Positions 2,143 to 58,076 of a stretch of DNA of 64,000 nucleotides are shown in pieces. Each line of letters opens with the position of its first letter. The stretch's first letter is position 1. The stretch is from a virus. The translations under genes were made by a program, and so were the position numbers. The stretch is taken from the UHGV virus genome UHGV-0279745; one strand, given 5' to 3'. Under the pieces are notes generated by a model. That model was given only the letters and a program-made list of their open reading frames with translations, was not told the origin of the DNA and did no database searches.

Positions 2143-2163
2143 TTTACCAAAAGGAAAAATGAC

Positions 2164-3439: not shown

Positions 3440-3446
3440 TCTCACT

Positions 3447-15560: not shown

Positions 15561-15600
15561 GGCCACTCTCCTTAATCCGAGACGTCCTTGTCTCGTGGCG

Positions 15601-20784: not shown

Positions 20785-20794
20785 CGTAAAGACT

Positions 20795-20840
20795 CCTACT
20801 TTTAAATAAAATGGATACCCCTCCCCGTTACAGGGAGGGG
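20795..20840 (-). terminator. terminator between tail-fibre genes (minus-strand orientation)
   Basis: cccctccc-loop-gggagggg hairpin with U-rich tract on the minus-strand downstream side. Confidence 0.5.
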
Positions 20841-20878
20841 TTACCTACGGACACACAACTGCCCGCAGGCAGCCTGTC

Positions 20879-25081: not shown

Positions 25082-25094
25082 CAAAAAATTCTCC

Positions 25095-33336: not shown

Positions 33337-33362
33337 GTAAAAACCTAAAAGGAGAATATATC

Positions 33363-33917
33363 ATGTATCTGACTAAACTGAAAAATGAAATTATCCAATC
33401 CCTTGAAAAAGGTGTAGGTGAACATTTCTTTAACTGTCCCTATACCGTACTGACCAATACCATTATTCAGCCAGGTGCGATGATAGTAGGGGTGAGTGTA
33501 CAAGCTGTGGAGGAAACCCCGCTGCGTCGCAACATCACGCGTAAAACGCATATCCCATTTAGAACGGGCTTTACAGATTACCTTCAGAGCTTACTGAAAG
33601 ATAGCGTTTGGAAAACAGGCAGCTTCTTCCACGATGGGAAGACTTCCACGCTGGTTTATAAAGAGAACACCAAGTATCTGGTTGATTTTCTCTTAGCGCG
33701 TCAATACGATTTCTTTCCATCCCCTTCTGGCACCACCCCTGATAATCCAGGTAAGTTATTAAACCAAGACGAAGCCGAAGCACTCTTTACAAGACTTCGG
33801 AATGAGCACTGCGATGTTGATGACTGGGAAACGTTGATCGCTGTCGCCAAAGTACATGGTTGGTATACTGTACGTAAAATCGGTCAGCAGTTGTTGTTCT
33901 TAGCTTACCCTGCTTAA
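33363..33917 (+). CDS. hypothetical protein (184 aa), GW...QLLF family
   Basis: AAGGAGA RBS; C-terminus HGWYTVRKIGQQLLFLAYPA. Confidence 0.7.
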   Translation: MYLTKLKNEIIQSLEKGVGEHFFNCPYTVLTNTIIQPGAMIVGVSVQAVEETPLRRNITRKTHIPFRTGFTDYLQSLLKDSVWKTGSFFHDGKTSTLVYKENTKYLVDFLLARQYDFFPSPSGTTPDNPGKLLNQDEAEALFTRLRNEHCDVDDWETLIAVAKVHGWYTVRKIGQQLLFLAYPA

Positions 33918-33946
33918 GTAACGAAAAACCCTAAAGGAGAGTAAAA

Positions 33947-35098
33947 ATGCGAAATATTATTTCTAAGCCAGGACATGCCAAGATCCTAAAAGAACTGATG
34001 GACAGATGCTATAATCGGACTTGGTCACTACCAAGCTTAACCATCGAGTCTTCATTACAACGTGAGTTGTTTGGTTATAACTTGGGCTGTTGTGTACTTA
34101 GTGAATACAACCAGGTTATCGCGCCTGTCGATGTCTGTACTTCCGATGAAGAAATTGAAGGTTACCAGTTCACAGCTTACACAAATTGTGGACTAAATTA
34201 CCGTAAACTCGTTGTTAGGGAAATGAGTAGCAACCGGAAGATTATGTTTAAGGTCTTCCCAAGTGGTAAAGTCAGTAATTTATGTTTTCAGCTTGAGAAA
34301 GTGCCCTTTCACGGTGCAGCCATTTTAACTAAACCAGAACTCCTGTTATTAAGCGGGTTAATTGGCTTTGAAGTAAAAACCATCAAAGTTGAGCAGGAAC
34401 TTACACGAAACGATTTCGGCTCAACTTGGTACGAAAGTTTCTTCCGCTACGAAATGTTAAGTGATAAAGCTATCAAACTCACTTACCGTTCTACCGACGA
34501 CATCGTTTACCACATTTTAATTAGCGGCGAACCCCACCAGATTATTGAAGTCGGAGGAGAAAAATCCGTGCGTACCTTAAAAGATGAATTAACTGATTTT
34601 GTTAACAAAATTGATAACGTGGGTATCAGTGAATTATTGTTCCCGATTCAACATCCAGAGCTGCTTGACGAGAAATCTGAAAACGTGGTTATGGGTGTGC
34701 ATTTACTTCCTGACCATCTTGCTATCTACCGTACACTTTCTAAGAATCAACTTAAAGTGTGGTGCCTGTTAAAAGACCTTTTAACAGAGGCGGGGTGGTC
34801 GTGTAGTGTAGATGTTAACTGTGAAGGAGTTGCGTTCTTCATCACAATAGGCAATCGTAGTTTTTCTGTCGATTTACCTACTCGCAGCTATTACAATTTC
34901 TTCCCGACCGCAGAAGGACGTACTGAAAAAGAACCCGCATTACTGCTCAGTGCTGAGGAGTCCAATGCGTTAATGGCGAAACTAAAGGCGAAAGACGAGA
35001 AGCTGGATGCTTTACATCTACCTATAATCGGGAAAGACTACGGTTGGGCTGACGTGCAAAAATACGGCAGTCAGCTGTTGTTTGTTGCTGACCTTTAA
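33947..35098 (+). CDS. hypothetical protein (383 aa), GW...QLLF family
   Basis: AAGGAGAG RBS; C-terminus YGWADVQKYGSQLLFVADL. Confidence 0.7.
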   Translation: MRNIISKPGHAKILKELMDRCYNRTWSLPSLTIESSLQRELFGYNLGCCVLSEYNQVIAPVDVCTSDEEIEGYQFTAYTNCGLNYRKLVVREMSSNRKIMFKVFPSGKVSNLCFQLEKVPFHGAAILTKPELLLLSGLIGFEVKTIKVEQELTRNDFGSTWYESFFRYEMLSDKAIKLTYRSTDDIVYHILISGEPHQIIEVGGEKSVRTLKDELTDFVNKIDNVGISELLFPIQHPELLDEKSENVVMGVHLLPDHLAIYRTLSKNQLKVWCLLKDLLTEAGWSCSVDVNCEGVAFFITIGNRSFSVDLPTRSYYNFFPTAEGRTEKEPALLLSAEESNALMAKLKAKDEKLDALHLPIIGKDYGWADVQKYGSQLLFVADL

Positions 35099-36580: not shown

Positions 36581-36631
36581 AAAAATAATTTCAGATATAT
36601 ATTACCTAGGTGAGAGTACAAAAGCTCTCAC
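36581..36631 (+). promoter_or_regulatory. second copy of promoter-like motif plus gtgagag/ctctcac hairpin
   Basis: About 95 percent identical to 335-410 over ~75 bp. Confidence 0.5.
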
Positions 36632-36660
36632 TTAATAAAACCATTTTAGGAGTATTAAAG

Positions 36661-37032
36661 ATGAAAAACGAATTATTTAAAGACCCGTTTGTTGTATTAA
36701 TGATCGTTACTCGCGCTGCCACTAACCCAGAAAACCTGAAACGTTTACTTACTAACGAAGCATACCTTATCGAACAGCGTGACGCGCAGTTAGCCAAACC
36801 GCACGCTGAAGGCCAGGCGAAAGACCTTATCTCTATTTTCCGTAACGAAGAATGGCGTAAAAACAACGAGCTGTCCGACAACTTGACGGTTGCAATTGCA
36901 AAACTCTTGACACTGTTCAATCTCGACAAAGACATTAACCAAAGCCTTTCTACAGAAGAACGTCTGGAAATGATAAGAGGTATCGGAGATAGTTATACAC
37001 AGATTAAAGCATTCCCCAACACAGTTATTTAA
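36661..37032 (+). CDS. hypothetical protein (123 aa)
   Basis: ATG after conserved leader ttttaggagtattaaag. Confidence 0.7.
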   Translation: MKNELFKDPFVVLMIVTRAATNPENLKRLLTNEAYLIEQRDAQLAKPHAEGQAKDLISIFRNEEWRKNNELSDNLTVAIAKLLTLFNLDKDINQSLSTEERLEMIRGIGDSYTQIKAFPNTVI

Positions 37033-37078
37033 TTTCATAATTTGTGGGAATTTCCCCATAACCCGAAGGAGCATTTCA

Positions 37079-37540
37079 ATGAAAACCTTTATCACATTCT
37101 TAATAACCATTTTAACTTTCGGCCTCAATAGCGCACACGCCGCTATCAACAGCTGGGAACAAATACAAAACCCTGGGCAGGCAGTTTACGAAATCGAGGA
37201 CACCGCCGGAAACGGACTGTCTATCAACTGTGACACAGAAACTGCGAATCGCAAATTTTACGGTCGCATGGTTTGGTATTACGGTGAACCCGTAGGTGCA
37301 ACTAACGCGGAAGATAACACGATGGATATTGTCGTAAACGGCAAAACCTATAACATCCCTACCGTGGACGGTAGTGACAAAGCAGAACACGCTTGGGTTG
37401 CTTTCGTTAAAGCTATCGGTAATGCCAAAACTTTCAGTGTGAGTATCAATGGTAACGATGCCGCTAACTTTACCGTAGAAGGCGAACGTCTGTCTGAAAC
37501 TTTCTTCCAAAACTGTGGACACACCCGTCCTAACAAATAA
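37079..37540 (+). CDS. small secreted protein (153 aa) with Sec signal peptide
   Basis: MKTFITFLITILTFGLNSAHA then AINS; GAAGGAG RBS. Confidence 0.7.
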   Translation: MKTFITFLITILTFGLNSAHAAINSWEQIQNPGQAVYEIEDTAGNGLSINCDTETANRKFYGRMVWYYGEPVGATNAEDNTMDIVVNGKTYNIPTVDGSDKAEHAWVAFVKAIGNAKTFSVSINGNDAANFTVEGERLSETFFQNCGHTRPNK

Positions 37541-37973: not shown

Positions 37974-38459
37974 ATGAAACGTTTACACACATTGATGTTC
38001 TTTCTGGTTTTCTTGTTTATCGGTGTCACGCCAACTGTAGATGCGGCCTCCGTAGACGAATTGCTTACCTGCGATGGAAACGCTTGGGAAGGTCAGCCAA
38101 ATGCGTGCCCAAACATCAACGACTTGTACGATACCGATAAGTCGTTTAAAGCCGTTGTTGATAAAACATTAGACCCTGTGGGACTGGATGGTATGTTCGG
38201 CTCTAAAGGTTACATGGATGGCCCTGGTGGTAACATGTATCCGGTAAACATCAACAACAAAATCTGGATTGAAAGTGGCGGTTGTAAAGCTAACGCTTGT
38301 GGTTGGGAATACATCGTAACGCTATACAACCCACACACCAAGAAACTCGTCGGCTATTACTACAACATCGACCCCGGTTATCTGATTTGGTTCGGTGATA
38401 TCGGTGTTGCCGAATTCGCTTACCTGGTTAAGAAATACGTAGAACAATCTAAATACTAA
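37974..38459 (+). CDS. small secreted protein (161 aa), 4 Cys
   Basis: MKRLHTLMFFLVFLFIGVTPTVDA signal peptide; AAAGGAG RBS. Confidence 0.7.
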   Translation: MKRLHTLMFFLVFLFIGVTPTVDAASVDELLTCDGNAWEGQPNACPNINDLYDTDKSFKAVVDKTLDPVGLDGMFGSKGYMDGPGGNMYPVNINNKIWIESGGCKANACGWEYIVTLYNPHTKKLVGYYYNIDPGYLIWFGDIGVAEFAYLVKKYVEQSKY

Positions 38460-39880: not shown

Positions 39881-40489
39881 ATGAACGAAATTACATTAGT
39901 TCGTTTTCTTGAAGCGATGCAAAATGCAGAGCGCTTTTCGCATACGCCTTTATTCATTGACTTAATGGAAGAAGAAGTAGAGGGATTCCTGGCATACCCT
40001 CGCTTACGGGAATATTTTAAACGTAAAACACCGACTGCTTACGAAAAGTTGGTTTACGCGCTTGAGAACAGTACAACATTGTTAACGTCACCTTTTAAGG
40101 CGTTGGAGGCTTTAGACCCGGCTGGTACCACAAGTATCCCACAACGTGTCGTGTTCTACTATATCGACCACGATCGAATCAAAGCCGATGTTGTTAACTG
40201 GATCTCTGAAAACGCAGTTCCTGAAACACGCACTTTTAATCTCTGTCCTGTAGAAGAAGGGTGGAAGGTCGGTAGCCACTATTCTTACCCGTACCAATCC
40301 ATTAAATCGCCGTTTTTATACCCGGTTTATCTGGATGACGTTACACCTGGAAATTGTATCCCGGTAACAAATCTGATCTGTACATTGACGATGGAAGTCT
40401 TAGCCACAAAGGCGGGACAGGTTTGGGTAGAAAACACGAAGAACGTCGATTATTGGACTTCAATGGGTTATCACCTGTACACCAAATAA
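39881..40489 (+). CDS. hypothetical protein (202 aa)
   Basis: AAAGGAAAG RBS. Confidence 0.7.
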   Translation: MNEITLVRFLEAMQNAERFSHTPLFIDLMEEEVEGFLAYPRLREYFKRKTPTAYEKLVYALENSTTLLTSPFKALEALDPAGTTSIPQRVVFYYIDHDRIKADVVNWISENAVPETRTFNLCPVEEGWKVGSHYSYPYQSIKSPFLYPVYLDDVTPGNCIPVTNLICTLTMEVLATKAGQVWVENTKNVDYWTSMGYHLYTK

Positions 40490-40493
40490 CGTT

Positions 40494-40535
40494 TGGGAGA
40501 ACCTTCGGGTTCTCCCTTTCTTTATTTTTTTTTCT
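40494..40535 (+). terminator. rho-independent terminator
   Basis: gggagaacc-ttcg-ggttctccc followed by long T-run. Confidence 0.7.
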
Positions 40536-40569
40536 TTTTACACCACACTCCGTCTTTATGGAGGTGGGT

Positions 40570-43074
40570 ATGCTAAAAGTTGAACGGATTATACTCAAAG
40601 GTTTTACGGGGATGGGATTACATGAAATTGAAACCTTCGATTTCACTATCCAGTCTCCGACAACAATTATCCTGGGTGGGAACGGCTGCGGGAAAACCAG
40701 TCTACTGTCTGTGTTCCTACCCTTAGCACCGGCTAAAACCGAATTCAGGGACGGCGGTTCTTACACAAACTACTGTTTAGTTGGCGATCAACGCTATCGT
40801 TTCAAAGTTGCCCGTAAAGGCAACTCTTTGGTTTGCGATATTGAGAACCTGACCACGGGGGCAAAGATCGTCGAGCAAGGTAATGCGAAAGTCTACAACT
40901 CCCGTGTTGAAGAAATCACAGGTATTACAAAAGAGATTAAAGAATTATTAAATGGTGAGGTGTTGTTAACCGATGCGGGAACCGAATTACGCCGCAAATG
41001 GTTTTACCGTTTAAGTACCTCTGATCTCACTTACGCGTTAGGGTTTTATCAACGTTTACGTAAAAACCTTACTGCCTTAAATGGGGGTATTGAAATCACC
41101 AGCCGTAAGATCGCCGAATTACGGACGCGTGTTATTGAGAACGAGGAAGAACGGCAGCAGTTAGCGACGAGATTAAAAGGTTTGGAATCGGATTTACGTG
41201 AACTGAACCGAGAAATCGAACAGTTACCAGGATTAAATCGTGCCGTCACCATCGAAACAATCCAAGCGTTATTAAACAGCTTGGGTCCAACCATCGACGC
41301 AATATTACAACATCGTGGTGGATTGCCTACTGATGAACAGATACTGGCCGCGCGACAAAACGAAGCGACGGCCCGCGAAGCCGTCGTGTCTACTGAAACA
41401 GAGGTATCGATGTTGAATAAAGACTTGTCGCTACTGATGGATGAGTCGACACGACAAGACTACCTGATGCGGAATCACGAAGGTCTCAAGAATACACTGG
41501 CACGTTTACGTGAGTTACTTACCAAATGGGACACCGAGCATCTCTTTCCGGGTTTATTTAACGACAACATCAATTTAGACCAACTTCGTGCGGCTACCGA
41601 CGCGCGTGTTTGGGGGCAACGGTTAGGAACAACACTGGACGCAATTCATTCAACCGAAAAACTTAATGTTTTGGAAGAACGGCTTCTGGTGATGGATCAA
41701 AAAACCGCAGGGTTGCGGGATAGACTCCAGCGAGTGGAGAACGTTTTACAGAATTTAAATCACGAACGTAATCACTACTTAGAAACAGCGGAAGTGGATT
41801 GCCCGCAGTGTCGGTTTAAGTTCCGTCCTGGCGTTACGCGTTCTTTACCTGAACTTGAGTCTTCGATTCGCGGACAACAACAGCAGCGCACGGAACTGCA
41901 AACGCAGTTAGAGACTCTATTACGCGATCGTGTTGAGTTAGAATCCGATGTAACTTATATGCGGCAGGTTCGTGAGATTGTACTGACGTATTCAAAGGAC
42001 CCGGTATTGAGCATGTTCTTTAAGCGTTTGCAAGAACGTAACGTTTTCACAGAATCACGTGAACAGTTCGGGAGTCTATGCGCAGCGTTTGACAGTGAGT
42101 TGTACTCTGCTATTGAGTACCATGAAACCCGTCAACGGTTAGTGAAGGCGGAAAAAGAATGGCAGGATGCCGTGGCGGCCGTTGGTAACGTCGATGGTGC
42201 TTTACAACAGAAAATTGCTTTCCAACAGTCACGATTAGGTAAAGCCACAGAGATGCTCTCAATGCGTCGTAGAGAGTACGAACTGGCTAACACGACACTT
42301 ACCTATCTGGTGAATGTTAAACGTGCTGTAGATGATTTCAGTGCGTTATTCGAACGGTTAGAGAGTGATGTTAAGGTTACGTTGACAAATACGGTCGTCG
42401 AGGAACTCTTACGTGCACGAGAAGGGAAGCTGGATGCTTTTACAACCGCACGCGAACGTTATCGTCAGATGGAAAATGAATTGAATCAGCTCAACAGTTT
42501 GGAACGCGAACTTGCTGACTTACAAGCCCAGCAATTCAATAACAAACTGATGATTCAAGCCTTCTCTCCAGAAAAGGGTGTACTTAGAAAGTATTTTTAC
42601 AACGCTATCGTTAGAATCACAGAGTTAATGACGCGTTATATCGAACAGGTCTGGACGTACCCCATGCGCGTTATGCCTTGTGACCTCACTGACGGCGATT
42701 TGGATTATACTTTTCCTGTCCAGCTAAAAACGCATCCTGAGCCTGTTCCTGACGTGCGTAAAGGGTCTAAGGCGCAGCGTGCGATATTTAATCTGATGTT
42801 CAGGCTGACTGCGTACAAAGCGCTGAAGTTGCATCAGTTTCCGTTGCTTTTGGATGAGCCTTCGGAAGGCATGGATGAGGAGCACCGTAACAACCTGGTC
42901 GGTTTTATTAAAACGTTAGCAAACTCGGGAGAATTTTCCCAACTGTTGGTAGTCTCCCACGAAGCCGAGGTTCATTCTAAACTTAATGAAGCATCGTACT
43001 GTGTCATCGAACCGGAAGGGGTGACATTGCCTGCGGTGTATAACGAAGGAGTAAAAATTGTTTATGCAAACTGA
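40570..43074 (+). CDS. SbcC/Rad50-like recombination ATPase (835 aa)
   Basis: Walker A GGNGCGKTS, long coiled-coil middle with CPQC zinc-hook-like motif, Walker B LLLDEPSEGMD, VSHEAE H-loop region; GGAGGTG RBS before ATG 40570. Confidence 0.8.
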   Translation: MLKVERIILKGFTGMGLHEIETFDFTIQSPTTIILGGNGCGKTSLLSVFLPLAPAKTEFRDGGSYTNYCLVGDQRYRFKVARKGNSLVCDIENLTTGAKIVEQGNAKVYNSRVEEITGITKEIKELLNGEVLLTDAGTELRRKWFYRLSTSDLTYALGFYQRLRKNLTALNGGIEITSRKIAELRTRVIENEEERQQLATRLKGLESDLRELNREIEQLPGLNRAVTIETIQALLNSLGPTIDAILQHRGGLPTDEQILAARQNEATAREAVVSTETEVSMLNKDLSLLMDESTRQDYLMRNHEGLKNTLARLRELLTKWDTEHLFPGLFNDNINLDQLRAATDARVWGQRLGTTLDAIHSTEKLNVLEERLLVMDQKTAGLRDRLQRVENVLQNLNHERNHYLETAEVDCPQCRFKFRPGVTRSLPELESSIRGQQQQRTELQTQLETLLRDRVELESDVTYMRQVREIVLTYSKDPVLSMFFKRLQERNVFTESREQFGSLCAAFDSELYSAIEYHETRQRLVKAEKEWQDAVAAVGNVDGALQQKIAFQQSRLGKATEMLSMRRREYELANTTLTYLVNVKRAVDDFSALFERLESDVKVTLTNTVVEELLRAREGKLDAFTTARERYRQMENELNQLNSLERELADLQAQQFNNKLMIQAFSPEKGVLRKYFYNAIVRITELMTRYIEQVWTYPMRVMPCDLTDGDLDYTFPVQLKTHPEPVPDVRKGSKAQRAIFNLMFRLTAYKALKLHQFPLLLDEPSEGMDEEHRNNLVGFIKTLANSGEFSQLLVVSHEAEVHSKLNEASYCVIEPEGVTLPAVYNEGVKIVYAN

Positions 43075-43409: not shown

Positions 43410-43538
43410 ATGACCACGATAAACGCTACGAATGTAGCGATATCCGCACTATACGACGCGGAACTTTCATGGGGTGGATTAATAATCACCACAGCCATAT
43501 TAGCCGCTGCGGCTTTCGTCATCGCGCGTTGGTTTTAA
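43410..43538 (+). CDS. small membrane peptide (42 aa), not in ORF track
   Basis: AGGAGCAGAAA RBS; hydrophobic C-terminal half GLIITTAILAAAAFVIARWF. Confidence 0.4.
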   Translation: MTTINATNVAISALYDAELSWGGLIITTAILAAAAFVIARWF

Positions 43539-43569
43539 TTTTACTTTTTTGCGTCTCTAAGGTTTGCAA

Positions 43570-44013
43570 ATGGAAATTTATTTGTTGAACGCATCTTCTA
43601 AAGTCGGTGAGCGACAAGCTGCCGATTTACTCAAACTACACTACCGTTACTTAGACCACCAGGCCACGTTACTGAAAATCAAAATGTCGGTGCCGAAGTT
43701 AAATGCGCGACAGCTGATCGAAGGTAACTGCATAGTTCTGGTGTATCAGGATGATGTCGCGGTAGGATACTGTAGTTATCGGAATCGTAACGGCTCACTT
43801 AAGATACGTTCGGTATACGTGCTCCCAGACCATCGTCAACGGGGTGTAATGAAAGAGATTTTCAAAGCAATTGCAGCTGATGAAGTTTTCGGCGAGATTG
43901 TTACTGGCATGTATGCGAAATGTAAAGAAGCAAAAGAGTATTTCATCCGACGCGGCTATCAGGCGGTTTACTCACGCGATCGTGAGTGGGTCGATTTTAG
44001 CAAAACATTCTAA
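43570..44013 (+). CDS. GNAT-family N-acetyltransferase (147 aa)
   Basis: Acetyl-CoA-binding motif A-like VYVLPDHRQRGVMKEIF; size typical of single-domain GNAT. Confidence 0.65.
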   Translation: MEIYLLNASSKVGERQAADLLKLHYRYLDHQATLLKIKMSVPKLNARQLIEGNCIVLVYQDDVAVGYCSYRNRNGSLKIRSVYVLPDHRQRGVMKEIFKAIAADEVFGEIVTGMYAKCKEAKEYFIRRGYQAVYSRDREWVDFSKTF

Positions 44014-44079
44014 AAACAATAAAGCTCTCTTGGCGTACCTCACTATGAGTGTGAGAAATTTACGTCAGGAGAGCTAATT

Positions 44080-44325
44080 ATGTTAAAATCGTACGGAGTG
44101 GGTGGTTTGGATACGAGTATTTGTTGGAAAGAATACGAACGTGCGAAAGCGTTCTTACAGCATCCCAATGTGGGGACAATAGGTAAGGTCTGTTTCGGCA
44201 AACCTTCACTGACGGCTTGTATCCAAGGGGCTTTAGGGACGTTGCCACCCGAAACACATTTCGAGCCTGAGGAGAATATGAATGTTCACAGAGAACCCAT
44301 CAATTTACGGCATACCGTTGAATGA
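44080..44325 (+). CDS. hypothetical protein (81 aa)
   Basis: GGAGAG RBS before ATG. Confidence 0.5.
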   Translation: MLKSYGVGGLDTSICWKEYERAKAFLQHPNVGTIGKVCFGKPSLTACIQGALGTLPPETHFEPEENMNVHREPINLRHTVE

Positions 44326-44650
44326 AATTGATATTCTGCAAATTTGTTATCAGTGCGGCGACTTCGGTAAGACACAAGTAACGCCGTTAGTTAAGCTTTT
44401 AGGTTACTTGCCTGAAATCGAGTTACCTTTTGTTAAACCTAGCTTAGTTCGTCGCGCATCGTGTCGCGAAGCTTATTTGCTCTGGAAACACAATATTTCA
44501 GTAGAGAAGGTCTGGGACCGTATGAACGATCATCAGTTCCGTGAGCAGGTCGTGCACACGCTTAACTTGGCACTGACTATGCAACGCCTGGGCTTACAAC
44601 ACGAGGGTTTAGAAGCGGCGGTCAAGCAATGGATTACGAAAAATCGATAA
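44282..44650 (+). CDS. hypothetical protein (122 aa)
   Basis: GAGGAG RBS; overlaps previous ORF. Confidence 0.55.
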   Translation: MFTENPSIYGIPLNEIDILQICYQCGDFGKTQVTPLVKLLGYLPEIELPFVKPSLVRRASCREAYLLWKHNISVEKVWDRMNDHQFREQVVHTLNLALTMQRLGLQHEGLEAAVKQWITKNR

Positions 44651-44737
44651 TGGGTAAAACATATATCGCTATACTTGTCGAGCTATCAATCGGCGGTACA
44701 CGTTTTAATACTACACATCAACTCCGGGCGTTTCGTT

Positions 44738-45235
44738 ATGTTAACGGTACGTAAAGAATCTGAAATTGGTAACGATCTTTTTAATGCGCCCGAAGACTAT
44801 AAAGTCGTTACCATTAATTGCGTAGGAGCGATGGGTCGCGGTATTGCACTCGCGTGTCGTGAACGCTACCCCAACCTTTACCAGGATTATCGTAAGCGGT
44901 GTCGTGAAAACGAAATTAAGATTGGAAACGTTTACGTTTACTCTGACGAAAAGTGTATCTTGCTCCCCACGAAAACCCATTGGCGCTTAAAGTCCCAGGT
45001 TTCTTATGTTACTGCGGGCATTACCGCACTAGCGGATTGTGCTGAGGATCTGGATACCAGCGTTGCTATCCCTCCACTGGGAATGGCAAACGGGTGGTTA
45101 GATTCCTGGGAAAGACAAGAAATCTTTTTGTGGCTTTACAAAAAACTTGAATCAAGGAGACAACACTACACGTTATACTTACCTGATAAGTTGTACCAAG
45201 AAGCAGAGTCATTAATTCCAAACTCTTTTAAATAG
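44738..45235 (+). CDS. macro-domain-like protein (~165 aa); start uncertain
   Basis: VVTINCVGAMGRGIALA resembles the macro-domain VNAAN...GGGVA motif; AIPPLGMANGWL resembles the second macro motif. Confidence 0.55.
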   Translation: MLTVRKESEIGNDLFNAPEDYKVVTINCVGAMGRGIALACRERYPNLYQDYRKRCRENEIKIGNVYVYSDEKCILLPTKTHWRLKSQVSYVTAGITALADCAEDLDTSVAIPPLGMANGWLDSWERQEIFLWLYKKLESRRQHYTLYLPDKLYQEAESLIPNSFK

Positions 45236-45335
45236 ATATTATCATTAGGGCACACAACAAAGGAGTATTAGCTGTCCGCGCCGTCATTTCGTCTTACGGA
45301 ATACGGAAATGTATAAATCCAACTGGAGAAACAAA

Positions 45336-46034
45336 ATGTTTCGTATCTTCTTTCTTTTACTGGTAACACTTTTCGCGTTTAACGCACAGGCGTCAACGTC
45401 AACGCCACATTCTAAGCATCAGCGTGAGTTTGCACAAATCCAACATCGGTTCGAAAAAGTCAGCCCGTTAATTGTGGAAATCTCACGAAAGCAGGGCGTT
45501 GATCCCAAGCTGATGATTACGCTGATTTATCGTGAATCGCGTTTTGATCCCAAGGCTTACAACAAAAGCTCACGAGCACATAGCCTGGTACAAATGCTTC
45601 CAAGTACCAAACGTAATCTGCTAAAGCTTTATGGAAAAGAATTAGGTCTTAGTCAGAACGCCGATTTGTATAATCCGCGCAACGCTGTTTTGCTGGCTAC
45701 CGCGTATGTTAAACATCTTGAGAAGGGGTTAACCAAACGACTCAAACGCAAGCCCACCATGGCTGAAATTGCGTTAGCTTACCACTGGGGTGAAAGTGGC
45801 GCTCACACGCGAATCAAAAGCAAATCTCGAGCAGCACAACGAGAAATGGCAGGCTTTATGAAAGACGCCGCGTTCTATAGCGCGAAAATCGATGTGCCTG
45901 TTGTTGTGGGCTCGGCCCCACGTCAGCTTGCGTTTGCGAAGAAAACACCACGTCAGATTCAACTGGCGGAAGTTAGTAGAATTTGGGATACGATAAACAC
46001 GAGTTTTCCAATCAATAGAGGAGTTACCCTTTGA
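45336..46034 (+). CDS. secreted lytic transglycosylase (SLT-domain) protein
   Basis: Signal peptide MFRIFFLLLVTLFAFNAQA; YRESRFDP, SLVQMLPST and AYHWGESG motifs typical of SLT domain; GGAGAA RBS. Confidence 0.65.
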   Translation: MFRIFFLLLVTLFAFNAQASTSTPHSKHQREFAQIQHRFEKVSPLIVEISRKQGVDPKLMITLIYRESRFDPKAYNKSSRAHSLVQMLPSTKRNLLKLYGKELGLSQNADLYNPRNAVLLATAYVKHLEKGLTKRLKRKPTMAEIALAYHWGESGAHTRIKSKSRAAQREMAGFMKDAAFYSAKIDVPVVVGSAPRQLAFAKKTPRQIQLAEVSRIWDTINTSFPINRGVTL

Positions 46035-46540
46035 GCATCGTAGTAACCGATTGGTATAAAGGCATTACAAAAGCCGCACAATTGACCGCGAAAGACGTTT
46101 ACAGTATCGTCCGAAGCAGTATCGAAGACGAGATTAAGTCGGATGAAGAATTCGCTGAGAAACACGAATTTTACGATGCTTTACCCACAGCATTCGGCGA
46201 CGACGAAGAAGAAGGTTTAGAGTTTGACTGGAACGTCAACCTTGCCTTACTGTGGATTTGTGGTTTACGGCCAACGGTAAAAGAAACCGAAGAAGGAAAA
46301 GTCTTGCTTTGGAATTTTACCGGGCAGTATAACCGTAATTTAGTCTTTAAACAGGCGTATATGGACGCTACTGTAGAACTTCAAAATCTACTGCTTGGCG
46401 AAAACACATACTGCCAACGCAGTTTCTTAACGATTCTGGAAAAACTTGTGTCGACACACAAAGTCTGGCGTAAAGAAGACGCCCCGGAACATATGTTCAT
46501 TTTAGAGTACGCTGTCATTCCAAATCAGCCGTTCTTCTAA
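46031..46540 (+). CDS. hypothetical acidic protein (169 aa), TTG start
   Basis: AGAGGAG RBS 8 nt upstream of TTG; no in-frame ATG near 5' end. Confidence 0.5.
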   Translation: MSIVVTDWYKGITKAAQLTAKDVYSIVRSSIEDEIKSDEEFAEKHEFYDALPTAFGDDEEEGLEFDWNVNLALLWICGLRPTVKETEEGKVLLWNFTGQYNRNLVFKQAYMDATVELQNLLLGENTYCQRSFLTILEKLVSTHKVWRKEDAPEHMFILEYAVIPNQPFF

Positions 46541-46606: not shown

Positions 46607-47086
46607 ATGATAAAATTCATTTGGCGTTATCCAACGCGTTTTTGGTTTGTGGTACTTGAACTGTGTATGGTTCTTGTAGCGGTTACTTTTGTCGAAGCGC
46701 CCGCCTCGCAGTTGGCCATTTTCTGCCTTTTCGTGACTGTCCCTGTATGGGTGATTGCGAAGGCTATTAAGTTCGTCATGGTGTGTTGGGCGAATTATAC
46801 CTGTCCGTATAAGCCTAAACAAATCATGAAATGGCTGATGTATATTGAAGAACGTTTACCGGCGCAACATAAATTACTGGGCTGGTCGTCAATGTTGGAT
46901 ATTGCACTAGAAACCAATGCAAAGTTCCCCGGTGCGAAAAACCCTTATTTGTTGATGGCGGTAATTGTTGCACAACAAAAACTGGTGGGTGACCGTTGGT
47001 TGCCAGAAGAAGCGAAAGCGTATATCCGTAAACATCCAAAAGCTTTTTACTCGGTAGGACAATGGCGTAACTTGCCATTATTTTAA
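46607..47086 (+). CDS. membrane protein (159 aa)
   Basis: AAAGGAGCAGAG RBS; multiple hydrophobic segments. Confidence 0.65.
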   Translation: MIKFIWRYPTRFWFVVLELCMVLVAVTFVEAPASQLAIFCLFVTVPVWVIAKAIKFVMVCWANYTCPYKPKQIMKWLMYIEERLPAQHKLLGWSSMLDIALETNAKFPGAKNPYLLMAVIVAQQKLVGDRWLPEEAKAYIRKHPKAFYSVGQWRNLPLF

Positions 47087-47140
47087 CTTTTTTACATAAC
47101 CCTTAGTTGATTTGAACAAACCTAAAAGAGGACTATTAAA

Positions 47141-48076
47141 ATGACTTTTCCATCTGAAGTAATTCACGAACTGGCTAACACGCTACGTCGTTACCATAGC
47201 AGCAAGACGATGCAAACCAATGTGGGTGCGACCGCCGACTTTTTACGTGGTTATTTCCTGGGCAGAAATCCAACGTCGATTACACAGGAAACGGTTTTCT
47301 CTATCGAACGTACCTCCTTAATCCTTCCAATTGATAATTTCACTGCGTTTCAAGAAAGGAATACGTTCAACTTCTCTATGGGAATGCTGTATTCGACCAT
47401 CGCCATTAATCCCATCATGAGAGATGACCCATCTTTCGTGCCTTACCAACATACAACGGATCACGGTAATTGGTTCGTTGTGGTAGAACAAGGTGCGAAT
47501 CAGTATGATGTTGTTGCAGCTCGTGACGAAGCTTTCTTTGATTTAGGGCAGATTTATCGCCGTCAAGAAATTGCGTTTGACCTACGTCAAGGTAATATCG
47601 GATTAAGTGGGTCTGCTGTCTATTTCATCCTGAGTAGTTGGTCACATGTAGGTTTTGTGCTGATGAAAAAAGGACCGTTGTTCAACTCACCGTTGGTAAA
47701 ATACCATAACCCTGAGGAAGGAGATCATGACGAAGAAGAAACGGTACCTAGCACAGAAGTCGCCGTTTGTGAAAACTACGATGATCTGAAATCTGTACTC
47801 GTTAAGCGTGATGTTTTCGAATCGTTAAACCTGGATTTCCCCGGTGACGAAAATGAAATATCCGTAGCTGACCTGGTAGAAGCGTTGTGTCAGAAAGACC
47901 AAGCTAACGAAATTAGCGACGAAGAAGCAGAACTCTTCCAAGTTCAACAACTCGTCAGCAAGGTTATCGGTGGACAGGGAATCGTTGACACTCTTATGGC
48001 TCTACCGCCGAAGAAACGAACTCAGAAGTATATTCGTGAGCTGGTTCTTGAAAACCTGGGTCAAACCAAAAAGTAA
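47141..48076 (+). CDS. hypothetical protein (311 aa) with acidic C-terminal half
   Basis: Conserved leader gaggactattaaaATG; terminator downstream. Confidence 0.7.
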   Translation: MTFPSEVIHELANTLRRYHSSKTMQTNVGATADFLRGYFLGRNPTSITQETVFSIERTSLILPIDNFTAFQERNTFNFSMGMLYSTIAINPIMRDDPSFVPYQHTTDHGNWFVVVEQGANQYDVVAARDEAFFDLGQIYRRQEIAFDLRQGNIGLSGSAVYFILSSWSHVGFVLMKKGPLFNSPLVKYHNPEEGDHDEEETVPSTEVAVCENYDDLKSVLVKRDVFESLNLDFPGDENEISVADLVEALCQKDQANEISDEEAELFQVQQLVSKVIGGQGIVDTLMALPPKKRTQKYIRELVLENLGQTKK

Positions 48077-48084
48077 TTTAAATC

Positions 48085-48120
48085 CCCTACTCCTCCGGGA
48101 GTAGGGTTAATTCTTTTTCC
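48085..48120 (+). terminator. rho-independent terminator
   Basis: ccctactcc-tccg-ggagtaggg followed by ttaattctttttcc. Confidence 0.65.
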
Positions 48121-48137
48121 ACCTTAGGAGTATTAAA

Positions 48138-48689
48138 ATGTTTCCATCGTCTGAATATTTAACTCATCTGGCTTACGGTATTCGCCGTGGTTCTGTTTTC
48201 CGCACACGTTTAAAGGATATAAATTTCCTGGCTAATTTCTTATTTGATCGTTTGTGGGATGGCGATAGTGTTTACAAAAAGATCACCGTAACACAACTTT
48301 ATTCCCTTATAGCAGCATCTGAAATTGTGCCTACGGATATTCGTCGATTTAAACGACAGCATAACGGGGATGTTACAATCAGCTTTCTTGATCGTTCTCC
48401 TATTACCGTTGAAATCGACGATCGTATTGACGCTAATAGTGAAATGTCTGGTTGGAAGATTCTGTTTGATTGTGGCAATCGTTATGCGGTACTTGGTTCC
48501 TCTGATGAGCGCGACTTCCCATTCGACAAACCCTACTACTACCTCAGTGAAGACGATTTCCCGGATAAAGAATCCAACATCTTTTTAAACGGAGACACAG
48601 TTTACTTCATTTTTCGTACCTGGAACGATGTTGCTGCTATGATTGCTCAAGGCGTCATCGATTACCGTAAACTAGAAGTTGACATTTAA
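48138..48689 (+). CDS. hypothetical protein (183 aa)
   Basis: Conserved leader ccttaggagtattaaaATG. Confidence 0.7.
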   Translation: MFPSSEYLTHLAYGIRRGSVFRTRLKDINFLANFLFDRLWDGDSVYKKITVTQLYSLIAASEIVPTDIRRFKRQHNGDVTISFLDRSPITVEIDDRIDANSEMSGWKILFDCGNRYAVLGSSDERDFPFDKPYYYLSEDDFPDKESNIFLNGDTVYFIFRTWNDVAAMIAQGVIDYRKLEVDI

Positions 48690-56051: not shown

Positions 56052-56576
56052 GTGGATATTTTAATTCAGCTTCGCAAGAAAACAACCATTGCCACACCGA
56101 TAGCGCTAGAGGAGAAAATCTCTGGTGCGGTTGCACGCAAGCTCTGTGGTGCTCACGGCTTTAGCGACCATCAGGAGCGGGTCGTTACTGTCGCCACATT
56201 ACACAACTTACGACACACAGTACATTACTGTTTAGTTGACAACGTCACCATCACTCTTGATGATAACGTAAATGTCGACCAACTGCGGCGCGAAATTGTC
56301 CACAAGATCGAGGCTTACAATAGACGTTTCGAACGGGCATGTACGCGTTTAACTGATGACGAAGCACTACGAAAACGTTTGAAACTTGAAATTGAATATG
56401 CAGCGCAACGTTATGGGGTTGGCGGTACCGAACCGTGTCTGACCGAACAAGAAATCACGTTAGCAATCGAGGTTTATACCACTCTCTGCTGCGCCATCCT
56501 AAAAGAGACCAACCACGAAATTACAAAAGCGTTGTTAAACACCGCAGACAAAATCACCCCAATTTTAGGACAATAA
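56052..56576 (+). CDS. hypothetical protein (174 aa), GTG start
   Basis: AAAGGAG RBS before GTG. Confidence 0.6.
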   Translation: MDILIQLRKKTTIATPIALEEKISGAVARKLCGAHGFSDHQERVVTVATLHNLRHTVHYCLVDNVTITLDDNVNVDQLRREIVHKIEAYNRRFERACTRLTDDEALRKRLKLEIEYAAQRYGVGGTEPCLTEQEITLAIEVYTTLCCAILKETNHEITKALLNTADKITPILGQ

Positions 56577-56577
56577 A

Positions 56578-57066
56578 ATGAACTTAAATCATAACTTCGA
56601 TATTCGTGACACCGATTTCGTACATGAATTTCTCAATAACGAAACGCGTGTACGAAAAGAAATTGAAGAAAAGTTGACTCCGTTGGTTGTAGACACTCCC
56701 TGGATGGCGGACTACGCCGCGTCCTACTTTTCTTCTCAGAGCTTATTTGGATACATATTTATCATACTTGACTTCTTCGATCCATCAAGCAAGCGCATAA
56801 CAGAAACATACGTTCGGCAACGCCTACGCCACGGTCGCAACGAGTTCTTAAAGAAAGTTTCTGATGCGTACCACATGGGTCGATTCCCTACTCCGCTAGT
56901 CCCTTATACAGAACCGGAATGGGATAAATTTTATACCCGGATTTGGGTTGAAGACTCTCTCTTGAACGAAATCGTAGAAATCATCAAGCGTAACGAAAAC
57001 CAACTTGCTCTGCAACTATGGGAGTGGCTAAAAGCTAATTATCCTGATTACGTCAAAATCGACTAA
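56578..57066 (+). CDS. hypothetical protein (162 aa)
   Basis: ORF tightly packed after previous gene. Confidence 0.65.
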   Translation: MNLNHNFDIRDTDFVHEFLNNETRVRKEIEEKLTPLVVDTPWMADYAASYFSSQSLFGYIFIILDFFDPSSKRITETYVRQRLRHGRNEFLKKVSDAYHMGRFPTPLVPYTEPEWDKFYTRIWVEDSLLNEIVEIIKRNENQLALQLWEWLKANYPDYVKID

Positions 57067-57072
57067 TAGACA

Positions 57073-57103
57073 CCCTAGCTTCGGCTAGGGTTACTTTATT
57101 TTT
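57073..57103 (+). terminator. rho-independent terminator
   Basis: ccctagc-ttcg-gctaggg followed by ttactttattttt. Confidence 0.65.
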
Positions 57104-57125
57104 AACCATTTTAGGAGAATAAACC

Positions 57126-58052: not shown

Positions 58053-58076
58053 GCTAAAGTGTTTAGGAGTATTAAA

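What the first reader, a model, noticed from the sequence alone, without database searches (positions are those of the whole stretch)
44738..45235. Macro-domain-like protein in a phage: possible ADP-ribose-binding or de-ADP-ribosylating factor
The protein contains VVTINCVGAMGRGIALA and AIPPLGMANGWL, which resemble the two signature regions of macro domains (VNAAN...GGGVA and the FP-IS-G-G loop). Macro domains bind or hydrolyse ADP-ribose adducts, so a phage copy could reverse host ADP-ribosylation-based immunity (for example DarT-type DNA ADP-ribosylation) or process NAD-derived signalling products.
Basis: partly seen in the sequence, partly recalled or inferred. Interest (0 to 1): 0.5.

Follow-up and report, generated by a model that had tools for sequence, protein, structure and literature searches.

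The report
Jumbo-phage AdfM anti-DarT macrodomain
This gene in a nucleus-forming jumbo phage encodes a stand-alone copy of the bacterial DarG antitoxin's macrodomain, which most likely strips ADP-ribose off phage DNA to defeat the host DarTG2 defence; the family was published in 2026 as AdfM, so this is a correct but already explained finding.

Summary
The ORF at 44738-45235 (+, 165 aa) is real, carries both quoted motifs and is under strong purifying selection (dN/dS 0.08). It is a macrodomain: Pfam Macro scores above its threshold, and the AlphaFold2 model (pLDDT 93.4) matches the DarG macrodomains best (TM 0.77-0.86). It belongs to the DarG2 class: PADLOC DarG 3.8e-37, and the family profile scores 99-154 bits against DarG structures versus 33 bits or less for TARG1 and other macrodomains. 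The catalytic Lys (K79) and Asn (N27) are conserved. DarG's C-terminal DarT-binding domain is absent, and no DarT lies nearby, so it is an orphan antitoxin-like enzyme. The window is collinear with the chimallivirus SPN3US. The ORF is the positional orthologue of Erwinia phage Asesino gp217 (62% identity) and a homologue of PhiKZ gp104 (41%). Both are named AdfM in Morgan et al., Cell Rep 2026. That paper showed that PhiKZ AdfM removes DarT2 ADP-ribose from DNA, is imported into the phage nucleus and protects against DarTG2. The gene is a new member of a known kind. The one open point is a clade-specific Gly-to-Trp change in the second ADP-ribose-binding loop, in a subclade that has never been assayed enzymatically.

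The parts
44738..45235 (+). adfM-like CDS (165 aa plus stop): a stand-alone DarG2-type macrodomain, predicted to be a DNA ADP-ribosylglycohydrolase
   Evidence: ORF and translation. Pfam Macro above its gathering score. PADLOC DarG 3.8e-37. NCBIfam antitoxin_DarG 125.6 bits over profile positions 7-156 of 338 only. AF2 pLDDT 93.4. Foldseek top hits are DarG macrodomains. 62% identity to Asesino AdfM gp217. dN/dS 0.084.
44804..44854 (+). Residues 23-39, VVTINCVGAMGRGIALA. Contains T25 and N27 (N27 codon 44816-44818, equivalent to Taq DarG N22 and PhiKZ AdfM N23) and ADP-ribose-binding loop 1, G30-x-M32-G33-R34-G35.
   Evidence: N27, G30, M32, G33 and G35 are invariant in alignment A1, which includes the DarG and PhiKZ AdfM sequences. 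N22A in Taq DarG and N23A in PhiKZ AdfM reduce activity. R34 takes the place of Taq K29.
44969..44983 (+). Residues 78-82, T-K-T-H-W. K79 (codon 44972-44974) is equivalent to the catalytic Lys K80 of Taq DarG and K78 of PhiKZ AdfM. H81 and W82 are equivalent to Taq H82 and W83.
   Evidence: T78 and K79 are invariant in A1 and A2. K80A inactivates Taq DarG, and W83 is proposed to stack on the modified thymine. K78 is named as the putative active-site residue in PhiKZ AdfM.
45065..45100 (+). Residues 110-121, AIPPLGMANGWL: ADP-ribose-binding loop 2. G115, A117, N118 and G119 correspond to Taq G117, G119, N120 and G121. W120 replaces Taq G122, a clade-specific change.
   Evidence: P112, P113, L114, G115 and G119 are invariant. 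M116 and W120 are nearly invariant within the enterobacterial-type phage clade. Ala at the Taq G119 position is also present in the enzymatically active PhiKZ AdfM. This is the least confident part of the model, with block pLDDT 85-86. In DarG the same loop moves on ligand binding.
40569..43074 (+). Synteny anchor, not part of the enzyme: SbcC/SMC-like ATPase gene, orthologue of SPN3US gp080 and Asesino gp207
   Evidence: phrog_77, 5.1e-92. 58% identity to SPN3US 168891-171407. The start at about 40569 comes from gene calls on identical contigs. The TTG start at 40354 is a mechanical extension.
43564..44013 (+). Synteny anchor: GNAT acetyltransferase gene, orthologue of SPN3US gp075 and Asesino gp212
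   Evidence: phrog_3810, 1.5e-25. Pfam Acetyltransf_1 on identical contigs. Same relative position in SPN3US and Asesino.
45309..46034 (+). Synteny anchor: lytic transglycosylase (SLT) gene immediately downstream, orthologue of SPN3US gp068 and Asesino gp218
   Evidence: phrog_4067, 5.6e-47. PF01464 SLT on identical contigs, where the gene is called from the equivalent of window 45336. Same position in SPN3US and Asesino.

Best explanation
The ORF encodes an AdfM-type anti-defence enzyme: an orphan copy of the macrodomain of the bacterial DarG2 antitoxin, carried by a nucleus-forming jumbo phage (family Chimalliviridae, related to SPN3US). When the host DarTG2 system is triggered, the DarT2 toxin ADP-ribosylates thymidines in TNTC-type motifs of single-stranded phage DNA. 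That modification blocks replication and packaging. The phage macrodomain binds the ADP-ribose moiety through loop 1 (GAMGRG) and loop 2 (PPLGMANG). It cleaves the thymine-ribose bond using the conserved lysine K79, with N27 positioning the substrate, and so restores unmodified DNA. It lacks DarG's C-terminal DarT-binding domain, so it works only by erasing the modification and not by sequestering the toxin. By analogy with its Asesino orthologue, it is probably imported into the phage nucleus, where the DNA is. What is shown here: the fold, the DarG2-class membership, residue conservation, the orphan status, orthology and synteny with Asesino AdfM, and purifying selection. What is shown in the literature for homologues: the enzymatic activity, the anti-DarTG2 phenotype and nuclear import. 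What is inferred for this protein: its activity, its target and its localisation.
For: Macrodomain membership: Pfam PF01661 above its gathering score. DarG class: PADLOC DarG 3.8e-37, and NCBIfam antitoxin_DarG is the only family hit at E<=1. PDB by sequence gives DarG macrodomains at 1.7e-25 and 1.2e-20; one search confirms the identity of 5M31, 5M3E and 5M3I. With the family profile, DarG scores 154, 142 and 99 bits, against 33 for TARG1 and 30 or less for Appr-1''-p phosphatases and viral macrodomains. Structure: AF2 pLDDT 93.4 and pTM 0.90; Foldseek ranks 1-3 are DarG macrodomains at TM 0.77-0.86 and rmsd 1.9-2.3 A, and rank 4 is the fused DarTG. Residues: K79 = Taq K80 and N27 = Taq N22 = PhiKZ N23, with T78, G115, N118 and G119 conserved. 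Orthology: 62% identity, gapless and full-length, to Asesino gp217 YP_009290835.1, which the AdfM paper lists as AdfM and shows to be nuclear; 41% identity to PhiKZ gp104. Gene order is the same in the window, SPN3US and Asesino: SMC, GNAT, macro, transglycosylase. The window is collinear with SPN3US 131.8-191.6 kb at 57% mean amino-acid identity, and Seoulvirus and Erskinevirus belong to Chimalliviridae. Orphan status: no PADLOC hit in 10 neighbouring ORFs, and the nearest cellular relatives are mostly 335-355 aa proteins with an N-terminal macrodomain, the DarG2 architecture. Function of homologues: PhiKZ AdfM removes DarT2-installed ADP-ribose from an oligonucleotide, rescues DarT2 toxicity, and its deletion sensitises PhiKZ and PhiPA3 to DarTG2. 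The macrodomain alone suffices as an antitoxin in Taq DarG. Purifying selection: dN/dS 0.084. The DarT2 motif TNTC is not avoided in the window, with 2187 sites against 2118 +/- 38 expected, so targets are plentiful.
Against: No activity, phenotype or localisation was measured for this protein or for any member of its 'PPLGM-A-N-G-W' subclade. For Asesino AdfM only localisation was tested. Loop 2 differs from DarG: Taq G119 becomes A117 and Taq G122 becomes W120. G119E impairs Taq DarG, although Ala at that position is compatible with activity in PhiKZ AdfM. Taq Q34, an ADP-ribose contact, is A39 here. The protein scores below NCBIfam's DarG cut-off (125.6 against 250), because half of the model is absent. 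Chimallin, PhuZ and PicA are not within the 64-kb window, so nucleus formation by this phage is inferred from collinearity with SPN3US. The host and any DarTG2 system it carries are not known; a 91% relative lies in a Salmonella enterica assembly.
Confidence: 0.8

Rival explanations
1. It is a DarG/TARG1-class hydrolase whose physiological substrate is not DarT2-modified thymidine. The substrate could be another macromolecular ADP-ribose adduct: ADP-ribosylated protein (as for TARG1), ADP-ribosylated RNA from an RNA-targeting ART defence, phosphate-linked DNA or RNA ends, or the products of a phage-encoded ADP-ribosyltransferase.
For: TARG1 is the next-closest structural class (TM about 0.70; 33 bits) and uses the same catalytic lysine. 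The clade-specific loop 2 (A117, W120) and A39 in place of Taq Q34 could alter substrate recognition. The AdfN paper notes that ADP-ribosylglycohydrolase counter-defences may also detoxify other DNA or RNA ADP-ribosylating defences. Many jumbo phages encode their own ARTs.
Against: DarG outscores TARG1 by more than 60 bits with the family profile and by six orders of magnitude in Foldseek E-value. H81 and W82 are retained; W83 in Taq DarG is proposed to stack on thymine, whereas TARG1 has Ala at that position. The orthologous family was shown to act on DarT2-modified DNA. No ART or other Pfam domain was found in 20 unassigned ORFs of the window, nor any PADLOC hit in 10 neighbours, although three quarters of the genome lies outside the window.
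Confidence: 0.1
2. It processes a small ADP-ribose derivative and not DNA. Candidate activities are ADP-ribose-1''-phosphate phosphatase ('Appr-1-p processing', 'phosphatase'), O-acetyl-ADP-ribose deacetylase (a YmdB-like 'RNase III regulator'), or hydrolase or sponge for NAD-derived immune signals. These are what several database annotations of homologues suggest.
For: Homologues are annotated 'putative Appr-1-p processing protein', 'phosphatase' or 'O-acetyl-ADP-ribose deacetylase (regulator of RNase III)'. Even the DarG crystal structures carry such depositor names. Weak sequence matches to Appr-1''-p phosphatase structures exist, at E 0.02-0.06.
Against: These names are legacy, transferred annotations. 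The same labels sit on 5M31 and 5M3I, which are experimentally DNA ADP-ribosylglycohydrolases. Matches to true Appr-1''-pases cover only loop 1 (residues 10-58 or 23-78) and score 30 bits or less, against 99-154 for DarG. No NCBIfam deacetylase or phosphatase family hits at E<=1. The catalytic lysine of the TARG1/DarG mechanism is present.
Confidence: 0.05
3. It is a catalytically weakened macrodomain that only binds ADP-ribose or ADP-ribosylated DNA, as a reader or shield. The bulky Trp in the diphosphate-binding loop would have compromised hydrolysis.
For: The G-to-W change at the Taq G122 position lies in the loop that closes over ADP-ribose. This loop has the lowest model confidence. Enzymatic activity has never been shown for this subclade.
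Against: K79 and N27 are invariant or nearly so, and the whole pocket is conserved under strong purifying selection. Taq G122 is not among the listed ADP-ribose contacts. W120 is itself nearly invariant across the clade down to 37% identity, which suggests an adapted feature and not decay.
Confidence: 0.05

Closest known systems
AdfM (anti-DarT factor macro) of chimalliviruses: PhiKZ gp104, PhiPA3 gp108, Goslar gp83, Asesino gp217 (Morgan et al., Cell Rep 2026, PMC13309987)
   Same: A stand-alone DarG2-like macrodomain of about 160-166 aa, encoded by a chimallivirus. The conserved active-site Asn and Lys are N27 and K79 here, N23 and K78 in PhiKZ. It is 62% identical and gapless to Asesino gp217 in the same gene neighbourhood, and 41% identical to PhiKZ gp104.
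   Different: It comes from a phage lineage absent from the 50,697-record phage collection at DNA level. It belongs to the enterobacterial-type subclade with loop 2 'PPLGMANGW' and a C-terminal 'YLP...EA...IPNSFK' helix, where PhiKZ has 'PPLGCANGG' and a 9-residue insertion before loop 2. Enzymatic and genetic tests were done only on the PhiKZ and PhiPA3 type.
DarG2 antitoxin of the DarTG2 toxin-antitoxin and phage-defence system (T. aquaticus and M. tuberculosis DarG; PDB 5M31, 5M3E, 5M3I; fused DarTG 7OMU)
   Same: The macrodomain fold matches at TM 0.77-0.86 and rmsd about 2 A. Identity is 32-34% over the structure-based alignment (39-42% over the sequence alignment). The catalytic Lys, the Asn and both ADP-ribose loops are present. 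The macrodomain alone is sufficient to neutralise DarT.
   Different: It lacks the C-terminal DarT-binding domain: only positions 7-156 of the 338-position NCBIfam model match, and the score is below the cut-off. It is not adjacent to a darT gene. It is encoded by a virus, so it works against the host system instead of serving as its safety catch. Loop 2 carries Ala and Trp in place of two Gly.
AdfN, the orphan DarG1-like NADAR enzyme of T-even phages (Johannesman et al., Nat Commun 2025, PMC11825919)
   Same: The same strategy: a phage carries an orphan antitoxin-like ADP-ribosylglycohydrolase that erases DarT-installed ADP-ribose from its DNA, with no toxin binding.
   Different: An unrelated fold (NADAR, not macro). 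AdfN acts on guanine adducts made by DarT1 and does not counter DarTG2.
AdfA (RB69/T4) and AdfB (ICP1 Gp145)
   Same: Phage-encoded anti-DarT factors.
   Different: These are small non-enzymatic proteins thought to bind and block DarT. AdfB mimics the DarG C-terminal domain, which is exactly the part that the protein studied here lacks.
TARG1 (human C6orf130; PDB 4J5Q/R/S)
   Same: The same macrodomain subclass and the same catalytic-lysine mechanism. It is the next-best structural class, at TM about 0.70.
   Different: Only 18-20% identity and 33 bits against the family profile. TARG1 has Ala where DarG and this protein have the Trp proposed to stack on thymine. It acts on protein-linked ADP-ribose.

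Membership tests
Macro domain superfamily (Pfam PF01661) | Sequence matches the family HMM above the curated gathering score | tested here: met
   27.9 bits against a cut-off of 22, E 2.4e-6, residues 25-116 on profile positions 3-104 of 118.
Macro domain superfamily (Pfam PF01661) | Three-layer alpha/beta/alpha macro fold with a mixed beta-sheet | tested here: met
   AF2 model with pLDDT 93.4 and pTM 0.90, and alternating strands and helices. 198 PDB chains match at E<=1e-3, and the listed top matches are dominated by macrodomains.
DarG2/TARG1-class ADP-ribosylglycohydrolase macrodomain | Catalytic lysine equivalent to Taq DarG K80 and TARG1 K84 | tested here: met
   K79, in the invariant T78-K79 pair of alignments A1 and A2.
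DarG2/TARG1-class ADP-ribosylglycohydrolase macrodomain | Substrate-positioning Asn (Taq N22, PhiKZ AdfM N23) and the ADP-ribose-binding loops | tested here: met
   N27 is invariant in A1. Loop 1 residues G30, M32, G33 and G35 and loop 2 residues P112-G115 and G119 are invariant. The deviations are A117 for Taq G119, W120 for G122 and A39 for Q34.
DarG2/TARG1-class ADP-ribosylglycohydrolase macrodomain | Closer to DarG than to any other macrodomain class in both sequence and structure | tested here: met
   Profile against PDB: 154, 142 and 99 bits for DarG, against 33 or less for the rest. Foldseek E 1e-13 for DarG, against 1e-7 or weaker for the other classes. PADLOC and NCBIfam each return only DarG.
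DarG antitoxin of a DarTG toxin-antitoxin system (NCBIfam NF048014, equivalog) | Full-length two-domain protein (macrodomain plus C-terminal DarT-binding domain) scoring above the curated cut-off | tested here: not met
   125.6 bits against a cut-off of 250. Only profile positions 7-156 of 338 are matched, and the protein ends at residue 165. The downstream gene is a transglycosylase.
DarG antitoxin of a DarTG toxin-antitoxin system (NCBIfam NF048014, equivalog) | Encoded next to a darT toxin gene | tested here: not met
   No PADLOC family, DarT included, hits any of 10 flanking ORFs. The flanks are conserved phage genes.
AdfM (chimallivirus anti-DarT factor macro) | Stand-alone DarG2-like macrodomain homologous to PhiKZ gp104 and Asesino gp217 | tested here: met
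   62% identity over 159 aa with no gaps to Asesino gp217, E 2e-74. 41% identity to PhiKZ gp104, E 4e-31. The same flanking genes as in Asesino and SPN3US.
AdfM (chimallivirus anti-DarT factor macro) | Encoded by a member of Chimalliviridae (nucleus-forming phage) | tested here: inconclusive
   The window is collinear with SPN3US (genus Seoulvirus, Chimalliviridae) over about 60 kb at 57% mean amino-acid identity. It includes the orthologue of SPN3US gp048, annotated as an RNA polymerase beta subunit. However, chimallin, PicA and PhuZ lie outside the window, and Pfam does not recognise the RNAP fragment.
AdfM (chimallivirus anti-DarT factor macro) | Removes DarT2-installed ADP-ribose from thymidine in ssDNA and protects the phage from DarTG2 | not testable with these tools
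   Shown for PhiKZ (biochemistry and genetics) and PhiPA3 (genetics) in PMC13309987. Inferred here from orthology and conserved active-site residues.
AdfM (chimallivirus anti-DarT factor macro) | PicA-dependent import into the phage nucleus | not testable with these tools
   Localisation was shown for the PhiKZ, PhiPA3 and Asesino proteins. Import recognises phage-specific surface residues and not a known linear motif.
MacroD/YmdB O-acetyl-ADP-ribose deacetylases and Appr-1''-p phosphatases | Best sequence or profile match to these families over the whole domain | tested here: not met
   No NCBIfam hit at E<=1 other than DarG. Appr-1''-pase structures match only residues 10-58 or 23-78, at 30 bits or less.

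The most novel reading that the evidence does not exclude
The enterobacterial-type AdfM subclade may be functionally distinct from PhiKZ AdfM. This subclade has loop 2 'PPLG-M-A/V-N-G-W', Ala at the Taq Q34 position and a conserved C-terminal helix, and it includes this protein, SPN3US gp070 and Asesino gp217. The invariant Trp in the loop that clamps the diphosphate could retune substrate specificity. Possible targets would be the different sequence contexts used by enterobacterial DarT2 enzymes, or another ADP-ribose-nucleic-acid linkage such as that made by RNA-targeting ARTs. The clade-specific C-terminal helix could be the surface read by this lineage's nuclear importer.
Probability: 0.12. 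Interest if true: 0.45.

Novelty: new member of a known kind. Interest (0 to 1): 0.22.

Why it matters
The gene adds one more, fairly divergent, member to a counter-defence family described in 2026. It comes from an apparently unsequenced, probably Salmonella-associated chimallivirus lineage. Practically, it means the legacy annotations of its homologues ('hypothetical protein', 'phosphatase', 'Appr-1-p processing protein', 'protein-ADP-ribosylation protein') should be replaced by 'AdfM / DarG2-like DNA ADP-ribosylglycohydrolase'. It also predicts that SPN3US-type jumbo phages, which are being considered for Salmonella, E. coli and Erwinia biocontrol, are intrinsically resistant to DarTG2. It does not open a new question. 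The only scientifically open point is whether the Trp-containing loop 2 subclade has the same substrate specificity as PhiKZ AdfM.

Tried and rejected
1. Near-identity DNA search of 43500-46100 against 50,697 phage records found no match. The phage could therefore only be placed by protein similarity.

2. I looked for a cognate DarT or any other defence-system protein next to the gene (PADLOC on 10 flanking ORFs). There was none, so the idea that this is a phage-borne complete DarTG module is rejected.

3. I looked for a phage-encoded ADP-ribosyltransferase or other NAD/ADP-ribose enzyme that the macrodomain might partner with. Pfam on 20 unassigned ORFs gave only a DUF7941 hit.

4. I tried to confirm a chimallivirus hallmark inside the window. 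Pfam does not recognise the orthologue of SPN3US 'RNA polymerase beta subunit' gp048. Chimallin, PicA and PhuZ are not in the window.

5. The sigma-70 promoter and intrinsic terminator scan around the gene was no better than shuffles for promoters. The terminator-like hits were weak and lay inside ORFs. It was uninformative, as expected for phages that use their own RNA polymerases.

6. Avoidance of the DarT2 motif TNTC was tested as an alternative escape route. The motif is not depleted (O/E 1.00, z +1.8).

7. The longer TTG-started ORF (44675) was considered as the true start. It is rejected because homologues start at the equivalent of 44738.

8. The annotations 'phosphatase', 'Appr-1-p processing' and 'RNase III inhibitor' were considered as functional leads. 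They are rejected as legacy labels, because the same labels are attached to the DarG crystal structures themselves.
Full report
OBSERVATION. An ATG at 44738 opens a 165-codon frame that ends with TAA at 45233-45235 on the + strand. VVTINCVGAMGRGIALA is residues 23-39 and AIPPLGMANGWL is residues 110-121. The mechanical ORF list also shows a longer TTG-started version from 44675. However, all close and distant homologues begin at the equivalent of 44738, and residues 2-6 form a core beta-strand in the structure model. The gene is clearly functional. Four independent assembled contigs encode the identical protein while differing by 5-6 synonymous and 0 nonsynonymous substitutions. Against a 91%-identical relative dN/dS is 0.084.

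WHAT IT IS: FOLD AND CLASS. Pfam's Macro model (PF01661) matches above its gathering score, at 27.9 against 22 bits. More specific libraries are far more decisive. The PADLOC DarG model gives E 3.8e-37. NCBIfam returns only the equivalog model 'antitoxin DNA ADP-ribosyl glycohydrolase DarG', at 125.6 bits. By sequence, the closest solved structures are 5M3I (E 1.7e-25), 5M31/5M3E (1.2e-20) and 7OMU (1.4e-11). The original paper confirms that these are the macrodomains of M. tuberculosis and T. aquaticus DarG, and the fold search labels 7OMU as the fused Thermosipho DarTG. A profile of 44 family members scores 154, 142 and 99 bits against these three. It scores only 33 bits against TARG1 and 30 bits or less against Appr-1''-p phosphatases, alphavirus macrodomains and SCO6735. 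An AlphaFold2 model built on that alignment is high-confidence (mean pLDDT 93.4, pTM 0.90). Its three best PDB matches are the DarG macrodomains (TM 0.77-0.86, rmsd 1.9-2.3 A, E about 1e-13), followed by the fused DarTG. A six-order-of-magnitude drop in E-value then separates these from TARG1 and the viral macrodomains.

ACTIVE SITE. Jankevicius et al. (PMC5179494) define the functional residues of Taq DarG. K80 is the catalytic lysine, and K80A is inactive. N22 gives the second-strongest mutational effect. K29 and G119 also matter. H82 and W83 are implicated, with W83 proposed to stack on the thymine. The ADP-ribose contacts are N8, L9, T20, N22, V31, Q34, T79, G117, G119, N120 and G121. In the alignment with the DarG fragments and PhiKZ AdfM these map as follows: K80 to K79, N22 to N27, T79 to T78, T20 to T25, H82 and W83 to H81 and W82, K29 to R34, V31 to I36, G117 to G115, N120 to N118 and G121 to G119. 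N27, T78, K79, loop 1 (G30, M32, G33, G35) and loop 2 (P112-G115, G119) are invariant across phage and bacterial sequences. There are three deviations. A39 replaces Q34. A117 replaces G119, a substitution shared with the enzymatically active PhiKZ AdfM. W120 replaces G122, which is not a listed contact. M116 and W120 are nearly invariant in the whole enterobacterial-type phage clade, down to 37% identity. The Trp is therefore a lineage feature and not a lesion.

ARCHITECTURE AND CONTEXT. Only the N-terminal half of the DarG models is matched (positions 7-156 of 338; 7-152 of 329). The protein ends about 10 residues after the macrodomain, so the C-terminal DarT-binding domain is absent and the NCBIfam cut-off of 250 bits is not reached. 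None of 10 flanking ORFs matches any defence-system model, DarT included. An exhaustive profile search of 1.84 billion representatives finds 926 relatives at E<=1e-30. After the 160-165 aa phage-type proteins, the best hits are mostly 335-355 aa proteins with the macrodomain at residues about 6-155, which is the canonical DarG2 layout. The gene is thus an orphan, antitoxin-derived enzyme. Its neighbours are an SbcC/SMC-like ATPase, a GNAT acetyltransferase, a phrog_11720 protein, and a lytic transglycosylase downstream.

WHOSE GENE IT IS. No phage record matches the locus at DNA level. tblastn finds the protein in 264 phage records, the best being SPN3US-like Salmonella jumbo phages (65%) and Erwinia jumbo phages (58-63%). 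ORF-by-ORF comparison shows the whole window to be collinear with SPN3US 131.8-191.6 kb at a weighted mean of 57% amino-acid identity. The shared genes include the paralogous giant virion proteins, the radical-SAM pair, RNase H, a UvsX-like recombinase and the gene annotated 'RNA polymerase beta subunit'. Seoulvirus (SPN3US), Erskinevirus (Asesino), Machinavirus and Derbicusvirus are all genera of Chimalliviridae, the nucleus-forming phages. The exact protein occurs on at least 10 assembled contigs with identical gene order. A 91% relative lies on a 226-kb contig of a Salmonella enterica isolate assembly, which suggests the host range.

WHAT IS ALREADY KNOWN. Morgan et al. (Cell Rep 2026, PMC13309987) describe exactly this family as AdfM, 'anti-DarT factor macro'. 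PhiKZ gp104 removes DarT2-installed ADP-ribose from a TNTC oligonucleotide, and an N23A mutation impairs that activity. It fully rescues DarT2 toxicity in E. coli. Deleting it from PhiKZ or PhiPA3 causes 3-6 log titre losses on DarTG2-expressing hosts, together with accumulation of ADP-ribosylated phage DNA. The proteins from PhiKZ, PhiPA3 and Erwinia phage Asesino localise to the phage nucleus. The paper's alignment lists Asesino gp217 (YP_009290835.1) as an AdfM. That is the very gene matched by our ORF, at 62% identity over 159 residues without a gap, and it sits in the same SMC, GNAT, macro, transglycosylase neighbourhood. PhiKZ gp104, translated from the paper's construct, is 41% identical. 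Our ORF is therefore the positional orthologue of a named AdfM.

MECHANISM (best explanation, confidence about 0.8). After infection triggers DarTG2, DarT2 ADP-ribosylates thymidines in single-stranded phage DNA. The phage macrodomain binds the ADP-ribose through loops 1 and 2 and cleaves the base-ribose bond with K79, assisted by N27. This restores replicable and packageable DNA. Without a DarT-binding domain it can act only as an eraser. That is sufficient in principle, because the Taq macrodomain alone rescues DarT toxicity. Targets are abundant: TNTC is not depleted in the window, with 2187 sites against 2118 +/- 38 in dinucleotide shuffles. Nuclear import is inferred from the Asesino orthologue. 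What this study shows directly is the fold, the class, the residues, the orphan architecture, the orthology and the selection. The activity, the target and the localisation are inferred from homologues.

RIVALS. (i) A different macromolecular substrate, such as protein, RNA or the products of a phage ART. TARG1 is the next class and loop 2 is modified. Against this, DarG outscores TARG1 massively, the thymine-stacking Trp is retained, and no ART was found in the 30 ORFs scanned. Confidence about 0.10. (ii) Small-molecule processing, as the legacy names 'Appr-1-p processing', 'phosphatase' and 'RNase III inhibitor' suggest. Those same labels are attached to the DarG crystal structures, and true phosphatases match only loop 1. 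Confidence about 0.05. (iii) A binding-only, catalytically weakened protein because of W120. The invariant K79 and N27 and the strong constraint on the gene contradict this. Confidence about 0.05.

NOVELTY AND VERDICT. The family, its activity, its anti-DarTG2 role and its link to the phage nucleus are already published. This is a new member of a known kind, from a chimallivirus lineage not yet present in the phage sequence collection. The residual open point is that the enterobacterial-type subclade ('PPLGMANGW', including Asesino and SPN3US) has been examined only for localisation and never for catalysis or phenotype. A shifted specificity cannot be excluded, at a probability of about 0.12. 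Interest is low to moderate (0.22). The value of the finding lies mainly in correcting annotations and in predicting DarTG2 resistance of SPN3US-type biocontrol phages.

Noticed in passing
window 44650-44754 (+): A 34-aa ORF (MGKTYIAILVELSIGGTRFNTTHQLRAFRYVNGT). Its ATG overlaps the stop of the upstream gene (TAATG), and its last 17 nt overlap the start of the macrodomain gene. Gene callers call it on most related contigs. It is kept open in the 91% relative, with 6 of 34 substitutions. SPN3US has an 82-aa gene (gp071) overlapping its macro gene in the same place. The ORF could be a real small protein or a translational-coupling remnant.
   Followed up: partly
window 416-4454, 32602-35098, 36610-37540, 37974-38459, 46607-48689, 56052-58976 (+): Blocks of ORFs with no detectable SPN3US counterpart. 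They have no Pfam domain, except DUF7941 at 3606-4454. These are lineage-specific accessory islands within an otherwise collinear genome, and plausible places for further host-takeover or anti-defence genes.
   Followed up: partly
window 14361-29417 (-): Four consecutive paralogous virion-protein genes of 435, 1727, 1401 and 1440 aa that cross-match each other's PHROG families (phrog_2163, 7449, 8078, 7557). They are orthologous to SPN3US gp099-gp096 at only 48-77% identity. The third is much longer than the 494-aa stretch that aligns with SPN3US.
   Followed up: no
window 9992-12221 (-): Two adjacent radical-SAM / 4Fe-4S proteins, conserved with SPN3US gp103 and gp102 at 82% and 69% identity. 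They lie next to a DUF4376-like gene. Their function in the phage is unknown.
   Followed up: no
window 43564-44013 (+): A GNAT acetyltransferase gene stays two to five genes upstream of the macrodomain gene in the window, SPN3US and Asesino. No functional link was tested.
   Followed up: no
window 40354-43074 (+): The mechanically listed 906-aa TTG-started ORF over-extends the SbcC/SMC-like gene. Gene calls on identical contigs, and the SPN3US orthologue, indicate an 834-aa protein starting near 40569.
   Followed up: partly
whole window; L009 (GCA_014613015.1 contig AAWEAX010000007.1): The phage has no match of about 85% identity or more at DNA level among 50,697 phage records, judged from one 2.6-kb stretch. 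Its proteins average 57% identity to SPN3US. A close relative forms a 226-kb contig in a Salmonella enterica isolate assembly. This is probably an undescribed chimallivirus genus carried in Salmonella cultures.
   Followed up: partly
P0049 (database protein, not in the window): A 435-aa protein made of two tandem DarG-like macrodomains, each with the NxVG...GxG, KDHW and GCGLGG motifs, plus a basic C-terminal tail. It is the second-best representative hit of the family profile. Its source and context are unknown.
   Followed up: no
homologues in phage records: Annotations of the same protein across GenBank are inconsistent: 'hypothetical protein', 'phosphatase', 'protein-ADP-ribosylation protein', 'putative Appr-1-p processing protein' and 'macro domain-containing protein'. 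In several SPFM phages the gene appears split or mis-called (152- and 123-aa fragments P0043-P0047).
   Followed up: no
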